Assembly: GCA_964555585.1 (NCBI GenBank)
Contig: CAZKSN010000002.1
Coordinates: 1,293 to 65,292 of the forward strand
Direction of reading: 5' to 3'
Source of the DNA: an uncultured Muribaculaceae bacterium
Lineage (GTDB): Bacteria; Bacillota_I; Bacilli_A; RF39; UBA660
DNA: 64,000 bases
Each line of letters starts with the position of its first letter. Position 1 is the first letter of the stretch. Under the pieces are notes generated by a model. That model saw nothing but the letters and a program-made list of their open reading frames with translations. It did not search any database and was not told the origin of the DNA. The translations under genes and the position numbers were made by a program. This document shows, one piece after another, positions 26,660 to 48,448 of the stretch.

Positions 26660-26869
26660 TTATTGATATCTACTCATTTGTTTCATCAATTGATTAACCT
26701 GTTTTTGACTTGGATTTCTTCCCATACCCCTCATTAAAGCTTTTATCATTTCCTCATTAACAGGTGGATTTTCTTTTAACTGTTTTGTCATTAATTTTTT
26801 TGCAATTAGAAATCCTGCAACTAAACCAAGAACAATTCCTCCCAATACATATAAAATATCAATAATCAT
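26660..26869 (-). CDS. yneF: UPF0154 family membrane protein YneF
   Basis: N-terminal transmembrane helix, then MIKALMRGMGRNPSQKQVNQLMKQM. Confidence 0.7.
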   Translation of the reverse strand: MIIDILYVLGGIVLGLVAGFLIAKKLMTKQLKENPPVNEEMIKALMRGMGRNPSQKQVNQLMKQMSRYQ

Positions 26870-43484: not shown

Positions 43485-43727
43485 TTATGCTTTCATTAAC
43501 TTTTTTTTAGCATTTTCAAATGTTTCACAACTTATTTCCTCAGCAAACTTATAACTCATACTTTCATTTTGTTTTCTATAGTTTTCAATGTCTGATAACA
43601 CTTCATTTAATGCATTTAATACTCTTTCTTTATCAATAATAATTTCACATACCTGCATTTTTATATTAGCGCATAATAGGATTGAATTTATAATCAAATC
43701 ATATCTCATATTTTTAAATCCTTTCAA
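43485..43727 (-). CDS. Small hypothetical protein
   Basis: ORF only. Confidence 0.3.
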   Translation of the reverse strand: MKGFKNMRYDLIINSILLCANIKMQVCEIIIDKERVLNALNEVLSDIENYRKQNESMSYKFAEEISCETFENAKKKLMKA

Positions 43728-43765
43728 TATAATAATTTTAACAAAAATTTATTATTCTTTCAAAT

Positions 43766-43790
43766 AAAAAAGTCAGTATAAACTGACTTT
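43766..43790 (-). terminator. Terminator hairpin, copy 1 of a 25-nt repeated element
   Basis: AAAAAAGTCAGT-ataa-ACTGACTTT. On the minus strand it reads as hairpin plus T-run. Its 25-nt core is identical to 44966-44992. Confidence 0.5.
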
Positions 43791-43796
43791 AATAAG

Positions 43797-44840
43797 TTAT
43801 CTTTTATTCTCCTTTGAAATCTCATAGTTCATAATCATATTATTTATAATAACAGGATAAAATTCTTCAATATTTTTATATGTATCTCGATTGTTTTCAT
43901 ACATGATTAGAGAATTAAGTATATTGTCTATATAAATAAATCCTAATCCTCTTTCTGCATTAGTTCTTTGTTCATACCTAGAAATATCTCCTGTTACATG
44001 AAGTCTATATCTTAAAGTAAGAGCTCTAATTATATGTTCATTAATTATTGTTAAATTATCTCCATAGGCTTGATTCTCCATAATTTCAAATATTTCACTA
44101 AATATTGTATCATCATCTTTAATAATATTATACTTATCAGTTAAAGGATTAATAAAACTATGACTAAATTCGTGATGTAACAAATAAATTAAGCCATTAG
44201 GAATTGTTTCATCCGGAAATATTTCAGTTTCTTTATCTGTTTCATGAGAACCACAAATATTTGAATATAAATCATTGTTAATATGAATACCATAATTTCC
44301 CCAAGTTTGAAATGGTAAAAGATTTACTATAAAATTATTTTTATTTGGTAAATTATAATAATTTAATATATATTCTATTAAATTGTTACTACCAAGTTGA
44401 GATAAAGTATTATTAATAAACATGCTATATCTTGCTTTATTCTGTTCATAAAATTTTTCGAAATCTATCTCTTTTGCAAAACTTTGAAGTAAATCTAACA
44501 TTTCTATTACTCTAGAATCACTTTCCAGCCTTGTTTTAAATGGATAATCTTTTAAACTCGTATATGAGAAATCATCATTTAACTGCAGAAATAAATCAAC
44601 TGGAGCATCATAGCTAAAATTATCATTTAAAACTATTTCATCAAATAGTTTTACAACCCTATGATCTTTATACTTACCGAATTGTCTCTCAATCTGTTCT
44701 ACATAGTCCTTATTACCATGTTTTTCTAATAATTGTGGAAACTTTTTTCTATAATTACTTATTATTTGGATTATTCCTAACAATTCTGTTTTTCTATCTA
44801 CTCTAATTTCAATAAAACCACTTTTTGCACTTACATTCAT
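43797..44840 (-). CDS. HExxH-motif protein (putative zinc metallopeptidase-like, DUF4932-like)
   Basis: LIYLLHHEFSHSF contains an HExxH motif. No transmembrane helices or signal peptide are evident. Confidence 0.45.
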   Translation of the reverse strand: MNVSAKSGFIEIRVDRKTELLGIIQIISNYRKKFPQLLEKHGNKDYVEQIERQFGKYKDHRVVKLFDEIVLNDNFSYDAPVDLFLQLNDDFSYTSLKDYPFKTRLESDSRVIEMLDLLQSFAKEIDFEKFYEQNKARYSMFINNTLSQLGSNNLIEYILNYYNLPNKNNFIVNLLPFQTWGNYGIHINNDLYSNICGSHETDKETEIFPDETIPNGLIYLLHHEFSHSFINPLTDKYNIIKDDDTIFSEIFEIMENQAYGDNLTIINEHIIRALTLRYRLHVTGDISRYEQRTNAERGLGFIYIDNILNSLIMYENNRDTYKNIEEFYPVIINNMIMNYEISKENKR

Positions 44841-44965
44841 AATATTACATCAAACTCCATAATACTTATTAAATTAAGTATATCATATTTATAATAAGTA
44901 TTGAATCATGATTTGTCTTATTCATTCTATTTACTTTAATTAACATATATAATTAATATTTATAC

Positions 44966-44992
44966 AAAAAAAGTCAGTATAAACTGACTTTT
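44966..44992 (-). terminator. Terminator hairpin, copy 2, directly abutting the stop of bacteriocin peptide B
   Basis: AGTCAGT-ataa-ACTGACT with flanking A/T runs. It is identical to copy 1. Confidence 0.5.
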
Positions 44993-45152
44993 ATAAACTA
45001 CAAGTATTTTTATTAATTAGTCTTCTAATTGCAGTTCCTAAACATCTTCCTACATCTAAAGCGGCGTTTATAGCTCTTACAAAAGCATTTATTAATGTTC
45101 CTGATATTAGTGAACCACCATTAATATAAAATAGTTCTTCTTTTTCTAACAT
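44991..45152 (-). CDS. Bacteriocin-like prepeptide B with a double-glycine leader (53 aa). It is not in the ORF track.
   Basis: Manual minus-strand translation gives MLEKEELFYINGG|SLISGTLINAFVRAINAALDVGRCLGTAIRRLINKNTCSL*. The leader has GG at -2/-1, hydrophobics at -4/-7/-12 and E at -8. The mature part is 40 aa, cationic, with 2 Cys. Confidence 0.6.
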   Translation of the reverse strand: MLEKEELFYINGGSLISGTLINAFVRAINAALDVGRCLGTAIRRLINKNTCSL

Positions 45153-45158
45153 ATAATT

Positions 45159-45293
45159 TTAACGGCATTTAAGAGGTCTAAGGTATCCATCCACTACTCC
45201 AATTAAGAAAACAATTATTCCAGTCATCGCAGTAATAAAACCCCAACTTACTGCTCCAGCAGATACATTTAGTAGTTCCTCTGTTGTTAGCAT
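45159..45293 (-). CDS. Bacteriocin-like prepeptide A with a double-glycine-type leader in AG/GA variant (44 aa). It is not in the ORF track.
   Basis: MLTTEELLNVSAG(A)|VSWGFITAMTGIIVFLIGVVDGYLRPLKCR*. Its leader is homologous to that of peptide B. An AGGAGA RBS precedes it. The ATG overlaps the ABC gene stop (ATGCTAA). Confidence 0.55.
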   Translation of the reverse strand: MLTTEELLNVSAGAVSWGFITAMTGIIVFLIGVVDGYLRPLKCR

Positions 45294-47362
45294 ACTTCTC
45301 CTTTCTGATAAAACTCATATTTATGCTCAAATAATTTTTTTATTTCTTTTTTATGAGATATATAAATTATAGTTTTATCTTTATATTTATTAAATATTCC
45401 TTTTATAATTTCAATTTCTTCTTTTAAACCGACTTCACTTAAAGCTTCATCTAAAATTATATAATTACTATTCTTCAATAAAGCTCTTGCTAAAATAATT
45501 TTTTGTCTTTCACCTCCACTTAAGTTAAAACCATTTTCTTCAATATAAAACATATTTCTAAATTTTTTATCATCTCTTATTTTATTCACTTTACATAATT
45601 TAATAATTCTCTCATATTCTTTCAAAGAAATATTTCTATCCAGAATAATATTATTAATTAAAGTATCTGAAAATAAAATTTCATTTTGCGAAACATAAGT
45701 AAAAGAATTTTTAATTATATCATTATCTATATCTAATAAATTATAATTATTAATATATATATCCCCCTCATAGTTATTTATATATTTTAATATAATTTTT
45801 ATTAAAGTACTTTTTCCTATCCCACTTTTTCCATATATTAATAACTTGTCTGTCTTCTTTATTTCTAAGTTTATATTACTAAAAGCATAATTTAAGTCAT
45901 TATATGAAAATTTTAAATTTTTAATTAAAATATTTCCTTCAATCATTTTTTTATTTAAATAATTTGAATTTTCTGGAGTTATCATTATTAAATCATTAAT
46001 TCTGTCATATGCTGTTTTTAAATACCTTAAATTTGGTTCTAAATCCATTAATTGTTTTATCGGCTCTAAAAATAGTAACAGTAACGTATTAAAAACGACT
46101 AAATCCCCAAGAGTAATTATATTTTTATTTACGTAATATGTACCGATACTTAGAATAAATAAAACTCCGATTTCAAAAATATTGTTTTTAATAAAACCTT
46201 GTTTTATTATTGAATCTTCAAAACTCTTAATTTTTTGCATAAAACCAATGAAATTTACTTTTAATTTTTCAATAATTTTAGAAGTTATATTTAAATTTTT
46301 TATTGTTTCAAATCCTTCAACAGCTTCAGTTAGATTTTTATTAAATTCTCCCTCAGCTGTTTGAATCAAATATATTTTTCTCTTATAAATATTTGAAAAT
46401 ATTACTACAACAAATATATACAATACCACCATTAATAATAAAATATATAATAAATTTTTATTTATAATAAATAATACTGTTAAACTAATAATAATTAGAA
46501 ATATATCAATAAATATATTTATAAATATTTGGGAAGCAATTTCTCTAAAATTATTTAATTCATTGATTCTACTTATTACTTCTCCAGTTGGTTTAGATTT
46601 AAAAAATTGATATGGGAGGAACATAATATGTTTAATGGATGAATTTGTTAAATAAATATTTATTAGATTATTTATTTCAATCAGCAATTTACCTCTAATA
46701 AAACTAAACATATTTTTCAGGAATATGATAACTAAAAAAATGAGTGTTGCACTTATTAAAACAGTATTTGAATAACTAATTAAGAATATATCAATAACGA
46801 GTTTAAAATAATAATTGTTTATAATTGTAAAAATTATTATAAATAATGAAAGTATAGATATATTAATAATTGTTTGCCTTTTTGTCATTATTAATTCAAA
46901 AATATCTTTTATTATATTTTTTTTATTATTTAATTCAGGTATTGTTTTTATAGGATAAAAATATAGAATAGTGCCTAAAAACATTTCATTGAATTCATTA
47001 AAAGAAACTTTTTTAATTCCATATGAAGGATCCATTAGCTTTATATATTTTTTATTTTTATTTATTTCATATATAACAATAAAATGTAATAAATTATTTG
47101 TTCTTACATGTGCAATTACCGGTAATATCTCACAGTTTTCAAATAATTCTCTAGAAGTTTTTCTCATTCCATAGCCATCAAATCCTATTTTTTTCATTCC
47201 TTCAATCATATTTAAAGCATTTGCTCCATTCTGATCCGTCTTTATTAAATACGATAATTCCTCTCTGGCAATATCTCCATTATAATACCTAATTATTGAT
47301 AATAAACAACTGACACCGCAATCCTTGATACCATTTTGTCTTACTATGTATTTTCTACTCAT
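45287..47362 (-). CDS. Bacteriocin-processing ABC transporter with an N-terminal C39 peptidase domain (LagD/SunT/ComA-like)
   Basis: C39 motifs QNGIKDCGVSCL (Gln/Cys) and LLHFIVIY (His). A six-helix transmembrane domain follows. Walker A GKSGIGKST, signature LSGGERQK and Walker B ILDEA. GGGAGG RBS. Confidence 0.85.
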   Translation of the reverse strand: MSRKYIVRQNGIKDCGVSCLLSIIRYYNGDIAREELSYLIKTDQNGANALNMIEGMKKIGFDGYGMRKTSRELFENCEILPVIAHVRTNNLLHFIVIYEINKNKKYIKLMDPSYGIKKVSFNEFNEMFLGTILYFYPIKTIPELNNKKNIIKDIFELIMTKRQTIINISILSLFIIIFTIINNYYFKLVIDIFLISYSNTVLISATLIFLVIIFLKNMFSFIRGKLLIEINNLINIYLTNSSIKHIMFLPYQFFKSKPTGEVISRINELNNFREIASQIFINIFIDIFLIIISLTVLFIINKNLLYILLLMVVLYIFVVVIFSNIYKRKIYLIQTAEGEFNKNLTEAVEGFETIKNLNITSKIIEKLKVNFIGFMQKIKSFEDSIIKQGFIKNNIFEIGVLFILSIGTYYVNKNIITLGDLVVFNTLLLLFLEPIKQLMDLEPNLRYLKTAYDRINDLIMITPENSNYLNKKMIEGNILIKNLKFSYNDLNYAFSNINLEIKKTDKLLIYGKSGIGKSTLIKIILKYINNYEGDIYINNYNLLDIDNDIIKNSFTYVSQNEILFSDTLINNIILDRNISLKEYERIIKLCKVNKIRDDKKFRNMFYIEENGFNLSGGERQKIILARALLKNSNYIILDEALSEVGLKEEIEIIKGIFNKYKDKTIIYISHKKEIKKLFEHKYEFYQKGEVC

Positions 47363-47414
47363 TTTTCCTCCCTAATATTATATAATTGATTGATTGATAA
47401 AACTCTTTTAGAAA

Positions 47415-47444
47415 ATAAAAAAACTACATCATATGTAGTTTTTA
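47415..47444 (-). terminator. Terminator hairpin between the epimerase gene and the bacteriocin operon promoter
   Basis: AACTACAT-cat-ATGTAGTT, flanked by A7 and T4 runs. It overlaps the stop of 47429..48448. Confidence 0.45.
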
Positions 47445-48448
47445 TATTCTTTACAAAATTTTGATAATAATTTCAAATTATGTGTTTTCTTTGCAATTAA
47501 AGGTTCGGATTTTTTTTGTAAAATATTTATTATAAGAAAACTTATCATTCTAGTAAAAAATCTTGTTATATTTTTTGTTTCTTTTCTTACTTTTCTATAA
47601 TAATCATCTAAATTTTCACTTCTGTGATGCAATAAAACTTCCAAATCATCTCCATCCTGTAAATAACCACAATGAAAATTATAATTTGCAAAAGCCACTG
47701 CTTTCAAATATTTAAAGTTTAATCCATAATGTTTAAACATATTCTTCAATAAGTCTCTATAAGTAGTTCTGCACAATTTTCCACCACTTAAATTAAATGT
47801 TTTATTATTTAATAAATCAGTTTTTTCAATTGCATTTACAAAAGCTCTGGCAGCATCTTCTGAAGTCAAGATCTCCATACAAGTATCAAGTGGCATATGA
47901 AACATCAATGGATCAACAGCTGGCTTATAATTCATTATAGCAGTTAATCTGAATATAGAATAATCTATATTTGATTTTCTAATAAGTTCCTCACATTTAA
48001 TTTTTAATTCAGCATAATAGTCATTTCCGGAATTTAATTTATCAGTAACTTTTATATACGGATTTTCAATTCTGTCTCCATAAACCGCTATTGAAGAAGA
48101 AAACAACAAAAATCCTTTACCATTTTCTTTTATTGCTTCCACTACATTTTTTGTTCCTTCGAAGTTTACTTTATATGCCTTGGTTGGATTTTTATCAGCA
48201 GCTGGAGGAATAATTGCAGCCAAATGTATTATAACATCAAAATCTTTTATAATTTTTTTAACTAAGTCTTCATCAGTTATATCCCCATACTTAATATCTA
48301 TTTTCCCTTCAAATGATGCAAACTTCTTTCTTACATTTCCTTTATCAACATCAAAGACTGTAATATCATATTTATCTTTTTCCACTAATTGCTCCAATAC
48401 TTCATAACCAACATTTCCACTTGCACCAGTTAATAATATTTTCTTCAT
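47429..48448 (-). CDS. NAD-dependent epimerase/dehydratase family protein (atypical SDR)
   Basis: N-terminal TGASGNVG Rossmann motif and a YAELK catalytic Y-x3-K. Confidence 0.7.
   Translation of the reverse strand: MKKILLTGASGNVGYEVLEQLVEKDKYDITVFDVDKGNVRKKFASFEGKIDIKYGDITDEDLVKKIIKDFDVIIHLAAIIPPAADKNPTKAYKVNFEGTKNVVEAIKENGKGFLLFSSSIAVYGDRIENPYIKVTDKLNSGNDYYAELKIKCEELIRKSNIDYSIFRLTAIMNYKPAVDPLMFHMPLDTCMEILTSEDAARAFVNAIEKTDLLNNKTFNLSGGKLCRTTYRDLLKNMFKHYGLNFKYLKAVAFANYNFHCGYLQDGDDLEVLLHHRSENLDDYYRKVRKETKNITRFFTRMISFLIINILQKKSEPLIAKKTHNLKLLSKFCKEYKNYI

What the first reader, a model, noticed from the sequence alone, without database searches (positions are those of the whole stretch)
44966..47444. 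Compact bacteriocin operon: a C39-peptidase ABC exporter coupled to two unannotated double-glycine-leader peptides
The 691-aa protein at 45287..47362 has the complete catalytic signature of a bacteriocin-processing C39 peptidase (Q..DCG and HF-IV) fused to an ABC exporter. Directly downstream on the same strand are two small ORFs that the six-frame track does not list. Their N-termini are mutually homologous double-glycine-type leaders (MLTTEELLNVSAG-A and MLEKEELFYINGG). Peptide A's start codon overlaps the exporter's stop (ATGCTAA) and has an AGGAGA RBS. Peptide B begins 6 nt after peptide A's stop. A hairpin terminator abuts B's stop. A separate promoter-like region and terminator hairpin sit upstream of the exporter. 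This is the classical layout of a class II, unmodified bacteriocin locus. The two peptides suggest a two-peptide (IIb-like) system: mature A is hydrophobic with a GxxxG-type motif (LIGVVDG), and mature B is cationic with AxxxA motifs and two Cys. No modification enzymes, accessory HlyD-like protein, obvious immunity gene or quorum-sensing two-component system are nearby. The locus is inserted between polC and the murG-ftsQ/recO-era housekeeping block.
Basis: partly seen in the sequence, partly recalled or inferred. Interest (0 to 1): 0.85.

Follow-up and report, generated by a model that had tools for sequence, protein, structure and literature searches.

The report
Exporter plus two secreted-peptide genes
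A three-gene operon in an uncultured, very AT-rich Bacilli-type bacterium encodes a peptide-cutting exporter and two small peptides that most likely work together as a membrane-attacking antibacterial toxin; the peptides belong to two large uncharacterised families that have been inherited next to housekeeping genes for a very long time.

Summary
On the minus strand, a 691-aa exporter (C39 peptidase + ABC membrane domain + ATPase) is followed by a 44-aa ORF (A) and a 53-aa ORF (B). Both carry 13-residue double-glycine-type leaders. Terminator-like hairpins flank the unit.

Both peptides belong to large families found only in metagenomes and MAGs:
- A has 62 clusters at 90% identity.
- B has 114 such clusters, and 469 representatives at 50% identity.
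- In 71 loci the order exporter-A-B is almost invariant.

The mature peptides are predicted helices. Each has an invariant GxxxG motif and one invariant Cys near the C-terminus. This fits a two-peptide (class IIb-like) bacteriocin, but that function is untested.

- About half of related loci also carry a ~150-aa single-pass accessory gene. About 60% carry a ~50-aa membrane protein (C), a leaderless paralogue of B and a candidate immunity protein. The window's polC-adjacent subtype lacks both.
- The locus is not a recent insertion. It abuts polC in genomes whose PolC is only 50% identical.
- The mature peptides are more conserved than the exporter (52% and 49% versus 38%).
- No relatives were found on plasmids or viral contigs.

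I rate it a new variant of a known kind, of moderate interest.

The parts
45287..47362 (-). Peptidase-containing ABC exporter (691 aa). It has an N-terminal C39 cysteine peptidase (Q9, C15, H93, D111), a six-helix ABC membrane domain and an ATPase domain (Walker A GKSGIGKST, signature LSGGERQ, Walker B IILDEA).
   Evidence: Pfam gives C39 95.1 bits, ABC_membrane 99.1 and ABC_tran 83.4. TIGR01193 scores 366.8 bits, below its 523.85 cut-off. The best PDB relatives are ComA 8hf4 at E = 3.7e-86 and PCAT1 4ry2 at 1.1e-84, with the DCG and LLH motifs aligned.
47367..47373 (-). Shine-Dalgarno-like AGGGAGG, 4 nt upstream of the exporter ATG
   Evidence: Read directly from the sequence.
47413..47449 (-). 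Terminator-like hairpin plus U-run at the end of the upstream epimerase gene. It separates the operon from upstream transcription.
   Evidence: Folds at -12 kcal/mol, z = -4.4, with 0 of 200 shuffles as stable. The consensus scan missed it because it has fewer than 3 G-C pairs.
45159..45293 (-). Peptide A precursor (44 aa). The leader MLTTEELLNVSAG spans 45255..45293. The predicted mature peptide is 31 aa (45162..45254), a hydrophobic helix with net charge +2. Its invariant features are F29, I31, G32-x-x-D35-G36, R39 and C43. The ATG overlaps the exporter stop, and the RBS AGGAGA is at 45297..45302.
   Evidence: Coordinates. The family has 62 clusters; invariant columns come. AlphaFold2 predicts a helix over residues 4-38, pLDDT 86.8. 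TIGR03949 gives 14.2 bits, below the cut-off.
44991..45152 (-). Peptide B precursor (53 aa). The leader MLEKEELFYINGG spans 45114..45152. The predicted mature peptide is 40 aa (44994..45113), an amphipathic cationic helix with net charge +4. Conserved features are SGTLIN, G35-R-x-L-G39, R43 R44 and the invariant C51. It starts 6 nt after A's stop and has no Shine-Dalgarno sequence of its own, so it is probably translationally coupled to A.
   Evidence: Coordinates. The family has 114 clusters and 469 representatives at E <= 1e-3. AlphaFold2 predicts a helix over residues 18-47, pLDDT 77. The gene callers missed it on this contig.
44969..44992 (-). Intrinsic-terminator-like hairpin (10-bp stem, 4-nt loop, T-run) that overlaps B's stop codon and ends the operon
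   Evidence: Found by the terminator scan, which gave 2 hits against 0.4 expected. Folds at -12.6 kcal/mol, z = -4.3.

Best explanation
The unit is a self-contained three-gene operon, exporter-A-B, flanked by terminator-like hairpins.

Proposed steps:
1. The two precursors are made from tightly coupled genes, so in roughly equal amounts.
2. The exporter's N-terminal C39 peptidase recognises their 13-residue double-glycine-type leaders. These have hydrophobic residues at -4, -7 and -12 and Glu at -8.
3. The peptidase cuts after AG (A) or GG (B), and the ABC part pumps the mature peptides out.
4. Mature A is a 31-residue hydrophobic helix. Mature B is a 40-residue cationic amphipathic helix.
5. 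The two then act together on a target membrane. Their invariant GxxxG motifs (GVxDG in A, GRxLG in B) pack into a helix-helix pair that perturbs the membrane or a conserved membrane protein. This is the mode of a two-peptide (class IIb-like) bacteriocin.
6. The single invariant Cys in each flexible C-terminal tail may link the two chains or contact the target.

What is shown: the gene structure, the domain content, the catalytic residues, the conservation and pairing of A and B, and the predicted helices.

What is inferred: the cleavage site, export, A-B cooperation, antibacterial activity and any disulfide.

The window carries the minimal form of a wider cassette, exporter-(accessory)-A-B-(C). 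In that cassette C is a membrane-anchored paralogue of B and a candidate immunity protein. How this producer protects itself is unknown. It may lack the target, or its immunity gene may lie elsewhere in the genome.
For: - The exporter has all three domains, and its catalytic residues align with ComA and PCAT1.
- The leaders match the double-glycine pattern.
- The pairing is obligate. A lies next to B in 62 of 65 evaluable loci, and the 3 misses are artefacts of my distance rule. The exporter lies upstream in 47 of 49. The median A-to-B spacer is 9 nt.
- In A, the GxxxG motif and one Cys are invariant. In B, the second Gly of GxxxG and one Cys are invariant, and the first Gly is nearly so.
- Both mature peptides are predicted to be single long helices.
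- 46 of 58 A-family members hit the class IIb model TIGR03949 at E <= 0.01, and 28 hit the lactococcin G-beta model. Some reach the curated cut-off, and NCBI and JGI name them accordingly.
- The full cassette maps one-to-one onto the class IIb gene set of transporter, accessory protein, two peptides and a small membrane protein, as described in the review PMC2850506.
- C is homologous to B (hhalign probability 92%, E = 6.5e-7) and not to A.
Against: - No immunity or accessory gene is present in the operon or anywhere in the 64-kb window. The review says an immunity gene always accompanies class IIb peptide genes.
- The window's own peptides do not reach any curated bacteriocin model.
- Leader-stripped mature peptides hit nothing, so the link to known class IIb families rests on the leader.
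- The mature peptides are more conserved than the exporter (52% and 49% versus 38% mean pairwise identity).
- The locus has stayed beside polC across roughly 50% PolC divergence, and no mobile-element copies exist. By my own knowledge, this core-gene behaviour is unusual for bacteriocins, which are usually accessory and fast-evolving.
- Peptide A has Ala at -2 (AG), and both leaders are 13 residues, shorter than the 15-30 quoted for class IIb.
- No activity, expression or cleavage data exist.
Confidence: 0.62

Rival explanations
1. The same processing and export take place, but the A/B pair is not a weapon. It is a lineage-core secreted or membrane-inserted two-peptide factor. Possible roles include an envelope or membrane component, a host-directed or cytolytic factor, or a self-recognition signal. 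It would be kept by purifying selection because it meets a conserved partner.
For: - The locus sits at two fixed housekeeping positions: upstream of polC, or between rsmD and rpsU-yqeY. This holds in genomes with only 50-55% identity in PolC or RsmD.
- The mature peptides evolve more slowly than their exporter.
- One genome that retains it is a single 1.49-Mb contig, so probably small.
- No immunity gene is present in the window subtype.
- No copies were found on plasmids or in viral contigs.
Against: - No precedent is known to me for a housekeeping role of double-glycine peptide pairs.
- The GxxxG, cationic, helical design and the adjacent B-like membrane protein in many loci are what a toxin-immunity pair looks like.
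- How widespread the locus is within the lineage was not measured, so 'core' status is not shown.
Confidence: 0.2
2. A and/or B are quorum-sensing or competence-type pheromones like ComC or BlpC. They would be exported by a ComA-like transporter and sensed by a histidine kinase.
For: - ComA is the best solved relative of the exporter.
- A few family members weakly hit pheromone leader models such as ComC, VP1 and EntF.
Against: - No histidine kinase or response regulator appears among the genes called within about 6 kb here or in L010 and L011.
- The mature peptides are 31 and 40 residues long, hydrophobic or amphipathic, carry GxxxG, and always occur as a fixed pair.
- By my own knowledge, pheromones diversify into pherotypes, whereas these mature regions are highly conserved.
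- The pheromone-model hits are leader-only.
Confidence: 0.07
3. The window's locus is a decaying remnant of the full cassette. It has lost the accessory and C genes, is no longer functional, or serves only as an orphan exporter.
For: - All 7 polC-adjacent loci lack the accessory and C genes that co-occur in 19 other loci.
- A DUF4932 gene has been inserted directly downstream, with a duplicated terminator.
Against: - All three genes are intact here and in six other polC-type loci spanning 44-65% exporter identity.
- The catalytic residues, leaders, GxxxG motifs and Cys are all preserved. That pattern means long-term purifying selection on the minimal form.
Confidence: 0.05

Closest known systems
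Two-peptide (class IIb) bacteriocins such as lactococcin G, enterocin 1071 and plantaricin EF/JK
   Same: - Two different adjacent precursor genes lie in one operon.
- Both have double-glycine leaders cut by a dedicated C39-ABC transporter.
- The mature peptides are cationic helical peptides of 30-40 residues with GxxxG motifs (review PMC2850506).
- 28 of 58 A-family members weakly hit the lactococcin G-beta model.
   Different: - The mature sequences have no detectable similarity to any known class IIb peptide.
- The window has no immunity gene and no accessory gene.
- The leaders are 13 residues long, and A has AG at the cleavage site.
- Each peptide has one invariant C-terminal Cys.
- The locus is chromosomal, deeply syntenic and slowly evolving.
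Lactobin A/cerein 7B family (NCBIfam TIGR03949)
   Same: - This is the only curated bacteriocin model that peptide A approaches.
- Several relatives pass its cut-off and are named after it in NCBI and JGI records.
   Different: - Window peptide A scores 14.2 bits against a cut-off of 21.5.
- The match needs the leader. Mature-only sequences give no hit.
- The FIIGVIDGYLRPxxC core is not part of that model's signal.
ComA (Streptococcus pneumoniae) and PCAT1 (Clostridium thermocellum) peptidase-containing ABC transporters
   Same: - Full-length alignment at E about 1e-85.
- The same three-domain order.
- The catalytic Cys and His, the conserved Asp and the upstream Gln are conserved.
   Different: - It scores below the curated TIGR01193 cut-off (367 versus 524 bits).
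- No ComB/HlyD-type partner is present.
- The related full cassettes use an unrelated ~150-aa single-pass protein with no Pfam match.
Mbov_0121 family peptidase-domain ABC transporters of mycoplasmas (NCBIfam NF045998)
   Same: This is the third-best NCBIfam hit (284 bits, full length). It shows that similar exporters exist in other low-GC, reduced-genome Bacilli-derived lineages.
   Different: The score is below that family's 500-bit cut-off. I did not examine that family's substrates.

Membership tests
Peptidase-containing ABC transporter (PCAT; C39 + ABC exporter) | N-terminal Peptidase_C39 domain above the Pfam gathering score | tested here: met
   95.1 bits against a cut-off of 22, residues 4-137.
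Peptidase-containing ABC transporter (PCAT; C39 + ABC exporter) | Catalytic Cys and His (plus Asp, and the oxyanion Gln six residues before Cys) are present. This separates it from the degenerate C39-like domain of HlyB-type exporters. | tested here: met
   Q9, C15 (DCG), H93 (LLHF) and D111 (MDP) are read from the sequence. Cys, His and Asp align with ComA 8hf4.
Peptidase-containing ABC transporter (PCAT; C39 + ABC exporter) | ABC transmembrane domain and ATPase domain with Walker A, signature, Walker B and H-loop | tested here: met
   ABC_membrane 99.1 bits and ABC_tran 83.4 bits. GKSGIGKST, LSGGERQ, IILDEA and ISHK are read from the translation.
Peptidase-containing ABC transporter (PCAT; C39 + ABC exporter) | Reaches the curated cut-off of NCBIfam TIGR01193 (peptide cleavage/export ABC transporter) | tested here: not met
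   366.8 bits against a cut-off of 523.85. It is the best hit but divergent.
Double-glycine (GG) leader peptides | Gly at -1 and Gly (or Ala/Ser) at -2, hydrophobic residues at -4, -7 and -12, an acidic residue at -8, and a gene next to a C39 exporter | tested here: met
   - B has G-1, G-2, I-4, L-7, E-8 and L-12.
- A has G-1, A-2, V-4, L-7, E-8 and L-12.
- GG occupies the same place in most relatives, and AG recurs in the window's close relatives.
- The consensus positions themselves are from my own knowledge of the family.
Double-glycine (GG) leader peptides | Hit to a curated leader model (TIGR01847 bacteriocin_sig) | tested here: not met
   The window's A and B give no hit at E <= 1. Only 8 of 58 A relatives and 8 of 98 B relatives hit at E <= 0.01.
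Double-glycine (GG) leader peptides | Actual cleavage after the GG/AG motif by the C39 domain | not testable with these tools
   This needs an in-vitro cleavage assay with mass spectrometry.
Class IIb two-peptide bacteriocins | Two different precursor genes adjacent in the same operon | tested here: met
   The spacer is 6 nt here. The median is 9 nt over 65 loci. A is next to B in 62 of 65 loci.
Class IIb two-peptide bacteriocins | GxxxG (or AxxxA/SxxxS) helix-packing motif in both peptides | tested here: met
   A has G32-V-V-D-G36, with both Gly invariant. B has G35-R-C-L-G39, where G39 is invariant and G35 is conserved in at least 90% of sequences. The criterion comes from PMC2850506.
Class IIb two-peptide bacteriocins | Helical, cationic, amphiphilic or hydrophobic mature peptides | tested here: met
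   AlphaFold2 predicts helices A 4-38 and B 18-47. Net charges are +2 and +4. This is prediction only.
Class IIb two-peptide bacteriocins | Immunity gene in the same operon as the two peptide genes | tested here: not met
   - A terminator follows B directly.
- No small membrane ORF is present, and the 64-kb window has no homologue of the candidate C family.
- C follows B in 41 of 67 related loci, but in none of the 7 polC-type loci.
Class IIb two-peptide bacteriocins | Dedicated ABC transporter plus accessory protein | tested here: inconclusive
   The transporter is present. No accessory gene is present, since the exporter's stop overlaps A's start. A ~150-aa accessory-like gene is present in 23 of 53 related loci.
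Class IIb two-peptide bacteriocins | Both peptides required, in about equal amounts, for antibacterial activity | not testable with these tools
   This needs peptide synthesis and activity assays.
Lactobin A/cerein 7B family (TIGR03949) | Score at or above the curated cut-off (21.5 bits) | tested here: not met
   Window A scores 14.2 bits, E = 0.027. The relatives P0053, P0030 and P0027 score 23.7, 27.8 and 22.5. Mature-only sequences give no hit.
ComC/BlpC-type peptide pheromone systems | Histidine kinase and response regulator genes next to the peptide and transporter genes | tested here: not met
   The genes called within about 6 kb are recO, murG, ftsQ, an epimerase, DUF4932 and polC. None is a two-component gene. 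The same holds in L010 and L011. The rest of the window was not scanned for them.

The most novel reading that the evidence does not exclude
The A/B(/C) module is an ancient, vertically inherited, lineage-wide peptide system of uncultured low-GC Bacilli or Mollicutes-like bacteria, rather than an ordinary accessory bacteriocin.

- The two exported helices would form an obligate heterodimer, possibly joined covalently through their single invariant C-terminal cysteines.
- The heterodimer would engage a conserved membrane partner.
- In the full cassette, the producer would be protected, or the complex regulated, by C. C is a leaderless, membrane-anchored paralogue of B that mimics B's GxxxG-Arg-Cys half.
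- The polC-adjacent subtype in this window has dispensed with both C and the accessory protein.

This would imply immunity by molecular mimicry, which I have not seen described for class IIb systems. It would also imply either a target absent from the producer or a non-antibiotic function.
Probability: 0.2. Interest if true: 0.75.

Novelty: new variant of a known kind. Interest (0 to 1): 0.55.

Why it matters
If A+B are active, they define a new and very large two-peptide bacteriocin family. B alone has hundreds of 50%-identity clusters. The family comes from bacteria that have never been cultured, living in guts, rumens and anaerobic digesters. Because the peptides are unmodified and only 31 and 40 residues long, they can be synthesised directly.

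Their unusual conservation implies a conserved target. That would make them useful probes or narrow-spectrum agents against these hard-to-study lineages.

Finding that the putative immunity protein is a membrane-anchored paralogue of one toxin chain, and that a whole sub-lineage does without it, offers a testable entry into how two-peptide bacteriocin immunity works. That mechanism is still poorly understood.

In practical terms, peptide B and its relatives are missed by gene callers and have no family model. The alignments made here could seed one.

Tried and rejected
- **Rfam, whole window:** no RNA family was found, so no riboswitch or leader RNA is involved.
- **Sigma-70 promoter scan:** hits were at chance level in this 23% GC DNA (48 against 52 expected).
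- **Pfam and NCBIfam on the two peptides:** no significant hits.
- **Pfam on the accessory-like and C proteins of relatives:** nothing.
- **PADLOC:** only generic ABC-ATPase matches, so no link to phage defence.
- **Accessory-protein and C homologues in the window, L002 and L003:** none found by tblastn or HMM search.
- **DUF4932 gene and the 80-aa ORF downstream of B as immunity candidates:** rejected. Neither has a transmembrane segment on reading the sequence, and both are absent from every other locus. The DUF4932 gene is bracketed by a duplicated terminator, so the two look like a local insertion.
- **The epimerase upstream as a modification enzyme (glycocin idea):** rejected. It is present only in the window and L002.
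- **Metagenome scan with the 98-sequence B alignment:** the first attempt failed for lack of a conserved stretch. It worked with a 19-sequence subset.
- **Viral contigs and PLSDB plasmids:** no relatives.
- **Literature search for the motif strings (GVIDGY, ISGTLINS, GRSLGTAIRR):** no paper. The gut class II bacteriocin survey PMC12648112 holds no supplementary text and does not mention these lineages.
- **Naming the organism through its Era GTPase:** 8000 hits, none named among the 120 listed. The nearest non-identical hit is 89% identical and most are about 70%. The lineage therefore stays 'uncultured Bacilli/Mollicutes-like'.


Full report
**1. What is in the sequence.** Everything lies on the minus strand.
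- A 691-aa ORF (45287..47362) is preceded by AGGGAGG.
- A 44-aa ORF follows (A, 45159..45293). Its ATG sits inside the exporter's last codons (ATGCTAA), and AGGAGA lies 3 nt upstream.
- A 53-aa ORF follows that (B, 44991..45152), starting 6 nt after A's stop.
- A 10-bp hairpin with a T-run overlaps B's stop (44969..44992). It folds at -12.6 kcal/mol, z = -4.3.
- A second hairpin with a U-run (47413..47449; -12 kcal/mol, z = -4.4) closes the upstream epimerase gene.
- The three genes therefore form a unit of their own.
In this roughly 23% GC DNA, promoter-like hits are at chance level, 48 against 52 expected.

**2. The exporter.**
- Pfam finds Peptidase_C39 (95.1 bits), ABC_membrane (99.1) and ABC_tran (83.4), in that order.
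- The best NCBIfam model is TIGR01193, 'peptide cleavage/export ABC transporter'. The score of 366.8 bits is below its 523.85 cut-off, so this is a divergent member.
- The best solved relatives are pneumococcal ComA (8hf4, E = 3.7e-86) and PCAT1 (4ry2, E = 1.1e-84), aligned over the full length.
- Q9, C15 (DCG), H93 and D111 are in place, as are Walker A, the ABC signature, Walker B and the H-loop.
- The peptidase domain is therefore the catalytic type, not the degenerate HlyB type.

**3. The two peptides are real genes.**
- Their leaders, MLTTEELLNVSAG and MLEKEELFYINGG, fit the double-glycine pattern: hydrophobic at -4, -7 and -12, and Glu at -8.
- A leader regex over all six frames of the window finds only these two and one unrelated YneF-like ORF.
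- Two related genomes have the same pair directly after the exporter: L002 (exporter 65% identical) and L003 (44%).
- Profile searches of 5.8 billion proteins find 62 clusters for A and 114 for B. All come from metagenomes or MAGs labelled 'Bacilli bacterium' or 'Mollicutes bacterium'.
- An exhaustive HMMER search with the B profile finds 469 representatives at 50% clustering, 209 of them at E <= 1e-10.
- Gene callers found A on the public contigs but missed B on this one.

**4. Anatomy of the families.**
- In A the invariant columns are L7, G13 (the cleavage Gly), F29, I31, G32, D35, G36, R39 and C43. The core reads ITFIIGVIDGYLRPxxC.
- In B the invariant columns are G13, G39 and C51. G12, G18, T19, N22, G35, R36, R43 and R44 are conserved in at least 90% of sequences. 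The core reads ISGTLINS...LGRSLGTAIRR......C.
- Each mature peptide thus carries a conserved GxxxG motif and exactly one invariant Cys, a few residues beyond the end of its helix.
- The window's second Cys in B (GRC) is not conserved.
- AlphaFold2 with the family alignments predicts one long helix in each: A residues 4-38 (pLDDT 87) and B residues 18-47 (pLDDT 77).
- Net charges of the predicted mature peptides are +2 and +4.

**5. Relation to known bacteriocin models.**
- 46 of 58 A-family members hit TIGR03949 (class IIb, lactobin A/cerein 7B) at E <= 0.01. 28 hit the lactococcin G-beta model.
- A few pass the curated cut-off and are named accordingly by NCBI and JGI.
- The window's A scores only 14.2 bits against 21.5.
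- Few B members hit anything.
- With the leader removed, neither A nor B hits any model.
- The link to known families therefore rests on the leader plus a generic Gly-rich hydrophobic start. The mature peptides are new families.
- No paper in the library contains their motif strings.

**6. Survey of 71 loci.** The set comprises the window, 2 genome loci, 2 distinct loci obtained by exact look-up, and 66 metagenome loci.
- A lies directly upstream of B in 62 of 65 evaluable loci. The three misses are artefacts of my distance rule.
- The median A-to-B spacer is 9 nt.
- The exporter is upstream in 47 of 49 loci.

Two further genes recur:
- *An accessory-like gene.* A ~150-aa protein with one N-terminal membrane helix and no Pfam match lies between the exporter and A in 23 of 53 loci.
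- *Protein C.* A 43-59-aa hydrophobic protein usually has a start that overlaps B's end by 13-16 nt. It is present in 41 of 67 loci.
- The two co-occur: 19 loci have both, 20 have neither, 9 have C only and 1 has the accessory gene only.

C is a paralogue of B:
- hhalign gives 92% probability, E = 6.5e-7, over 33 columns. These cover B's helix, its GxxxG, the Arg and the terminal Cys.
- C shows no relation to A.
- C has a basic N-terminus and a membrane helix instead of a leader.

The full cassette is therefore exporter-accessory-A-B-C. This is the class IIb gene set described in the review PMC2850506, and C sits where the immunity gene normally lies.

**7. The window carries the minimal form.**
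- All seven polC-adjacent loci (window, L002, L003, L013, L018, L024, L025) have only exporter-A-B.
- The 64-kb window holds no homologue of the accessory protein or of C.
- The minimal form is not decaying. All three genes are intact across this group, with exporter identities of 44-65% to the window.

**8. Evolutionary behaviour.** The cassette occupies two fixed positions:
- immediately upstream of polC;
- between ylbD-ylbE-rsmD and rpsU-yqeY.

Further points:
- PolC of L013, L024 and L025 is only 50% identical to the window's, yet the cassette still abuts polC, and the exporters are 53-54% identical.
- Over 496 pairs of loci, mean identity is 38% for the exporter, 52% for mature A and 49% for mature B.
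- No relatives exist in the viral-contig collection or in PLSDB plasmids.
- This is old vertical inheritance under strong purifying selection on the mature peptides.

**9. Interpretation.**
- The best-supported mechanism is export and leader cleavage by the C39-ABC protein, followed by joint action of A and B on a membrane through GxxxG helix packing. That is a class IIb-like two-peptide bacteriocin.
- I put about 0.9 on the processing-and-export part and about 0.6 on antibacterial function.
- The points against are listed under the best explanation. The main ones are the missing immunity gene, the leader-only similarity to known bacteriocins, and the core-gene-like conservation.
- The main rival is a conserved secreted or membrane two-peptide factor with another role (0.2).
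- A pheromone role is unlikely. There is no two-component system nearby, the two long peptides form a fixed pair, and there is no pherotype-like diversification.
- The invariant single Cys in each chain suggests an inter-chain disulfide or a shared contact. This is inference only.

**10. Verdict.** It is a new variant of a known kind: a minimal, immunity-less, deeply conserved member of a large uncharacterised two-peptide system from uncultured low-GC Bacilli. Interest is moderate (0.55).

Noticed in passing
window 43751-43795 and 44952-44996: A 45-nt direct repeat (84% identical) contains the terminator hairpin. One copy follows peptide B and the other follows the DUF4932 gene. This suggests the DUF4932 segment was inserted between B and polC with duplication of the terminator.
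   Followed up: partly
window 43797-44840 (-) and 43485-43727 (-): A 347-aa DUF4932 protein (150.6 bits) with an HExxH-like HHEFSH motif and an 80-aa ORF lie between the operon and polC. Both are absent from all other polC-type loci, so they are not part of the system.
   Followed up: partly
L002 (CAZMCS010000006.1): The record is titled 'uncultured Muribaculaceae'. However, it encodes PolC (72% identical to the window's), FtsQ, the same epimerase and the same peptide operon. The bin is probably mislabelled or contaminated.
   Followed up: no
L010 7168-7818: In a single 1.49-Mb contig (OW818670.1), a UbiE-type methyltransferase gene sits between the A and B genes. This is one of only three loci where A and B are not adjacent.
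   Followed up: no
L051 532-830, L053 268-566: Two tandem A-family genes precede a single B gene (A-A-B). This may reflect diversification of the hydrophobic partner.
   Followed up: no
L072 6370-7170, L076 6234-7046: In some minimal loci, the gene after B encodes a ~270-aa protein with a prepilin-like N-terminus (MKxxKGF..LIYSF..).
   Followed up: no
L066 5097-6767, L068 4671-6347, L048 10619-11365, L040 1344-1997: A second ABC-type gene lies downstream of the cassette in several loci. It could be a self-protection pump, but this was not examined.
   Followed up: no
window 1-64000: No Rfam family reaches its gathering score anywhere in 64 kb. Among the 120 Era homologues listed, the closest non-identical one is 89% identical and none comes from a named organism. 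The lineage has no cultured or named close relative in these collections.
   Followed up: partly
window 26660-26869 (-): A 69-aa ORF with an N-terminal membrane helix (YneF/UPF0154-like by eye) matched my loose leader regex. It is a false positive, not a third precursor.
   Followed up: no
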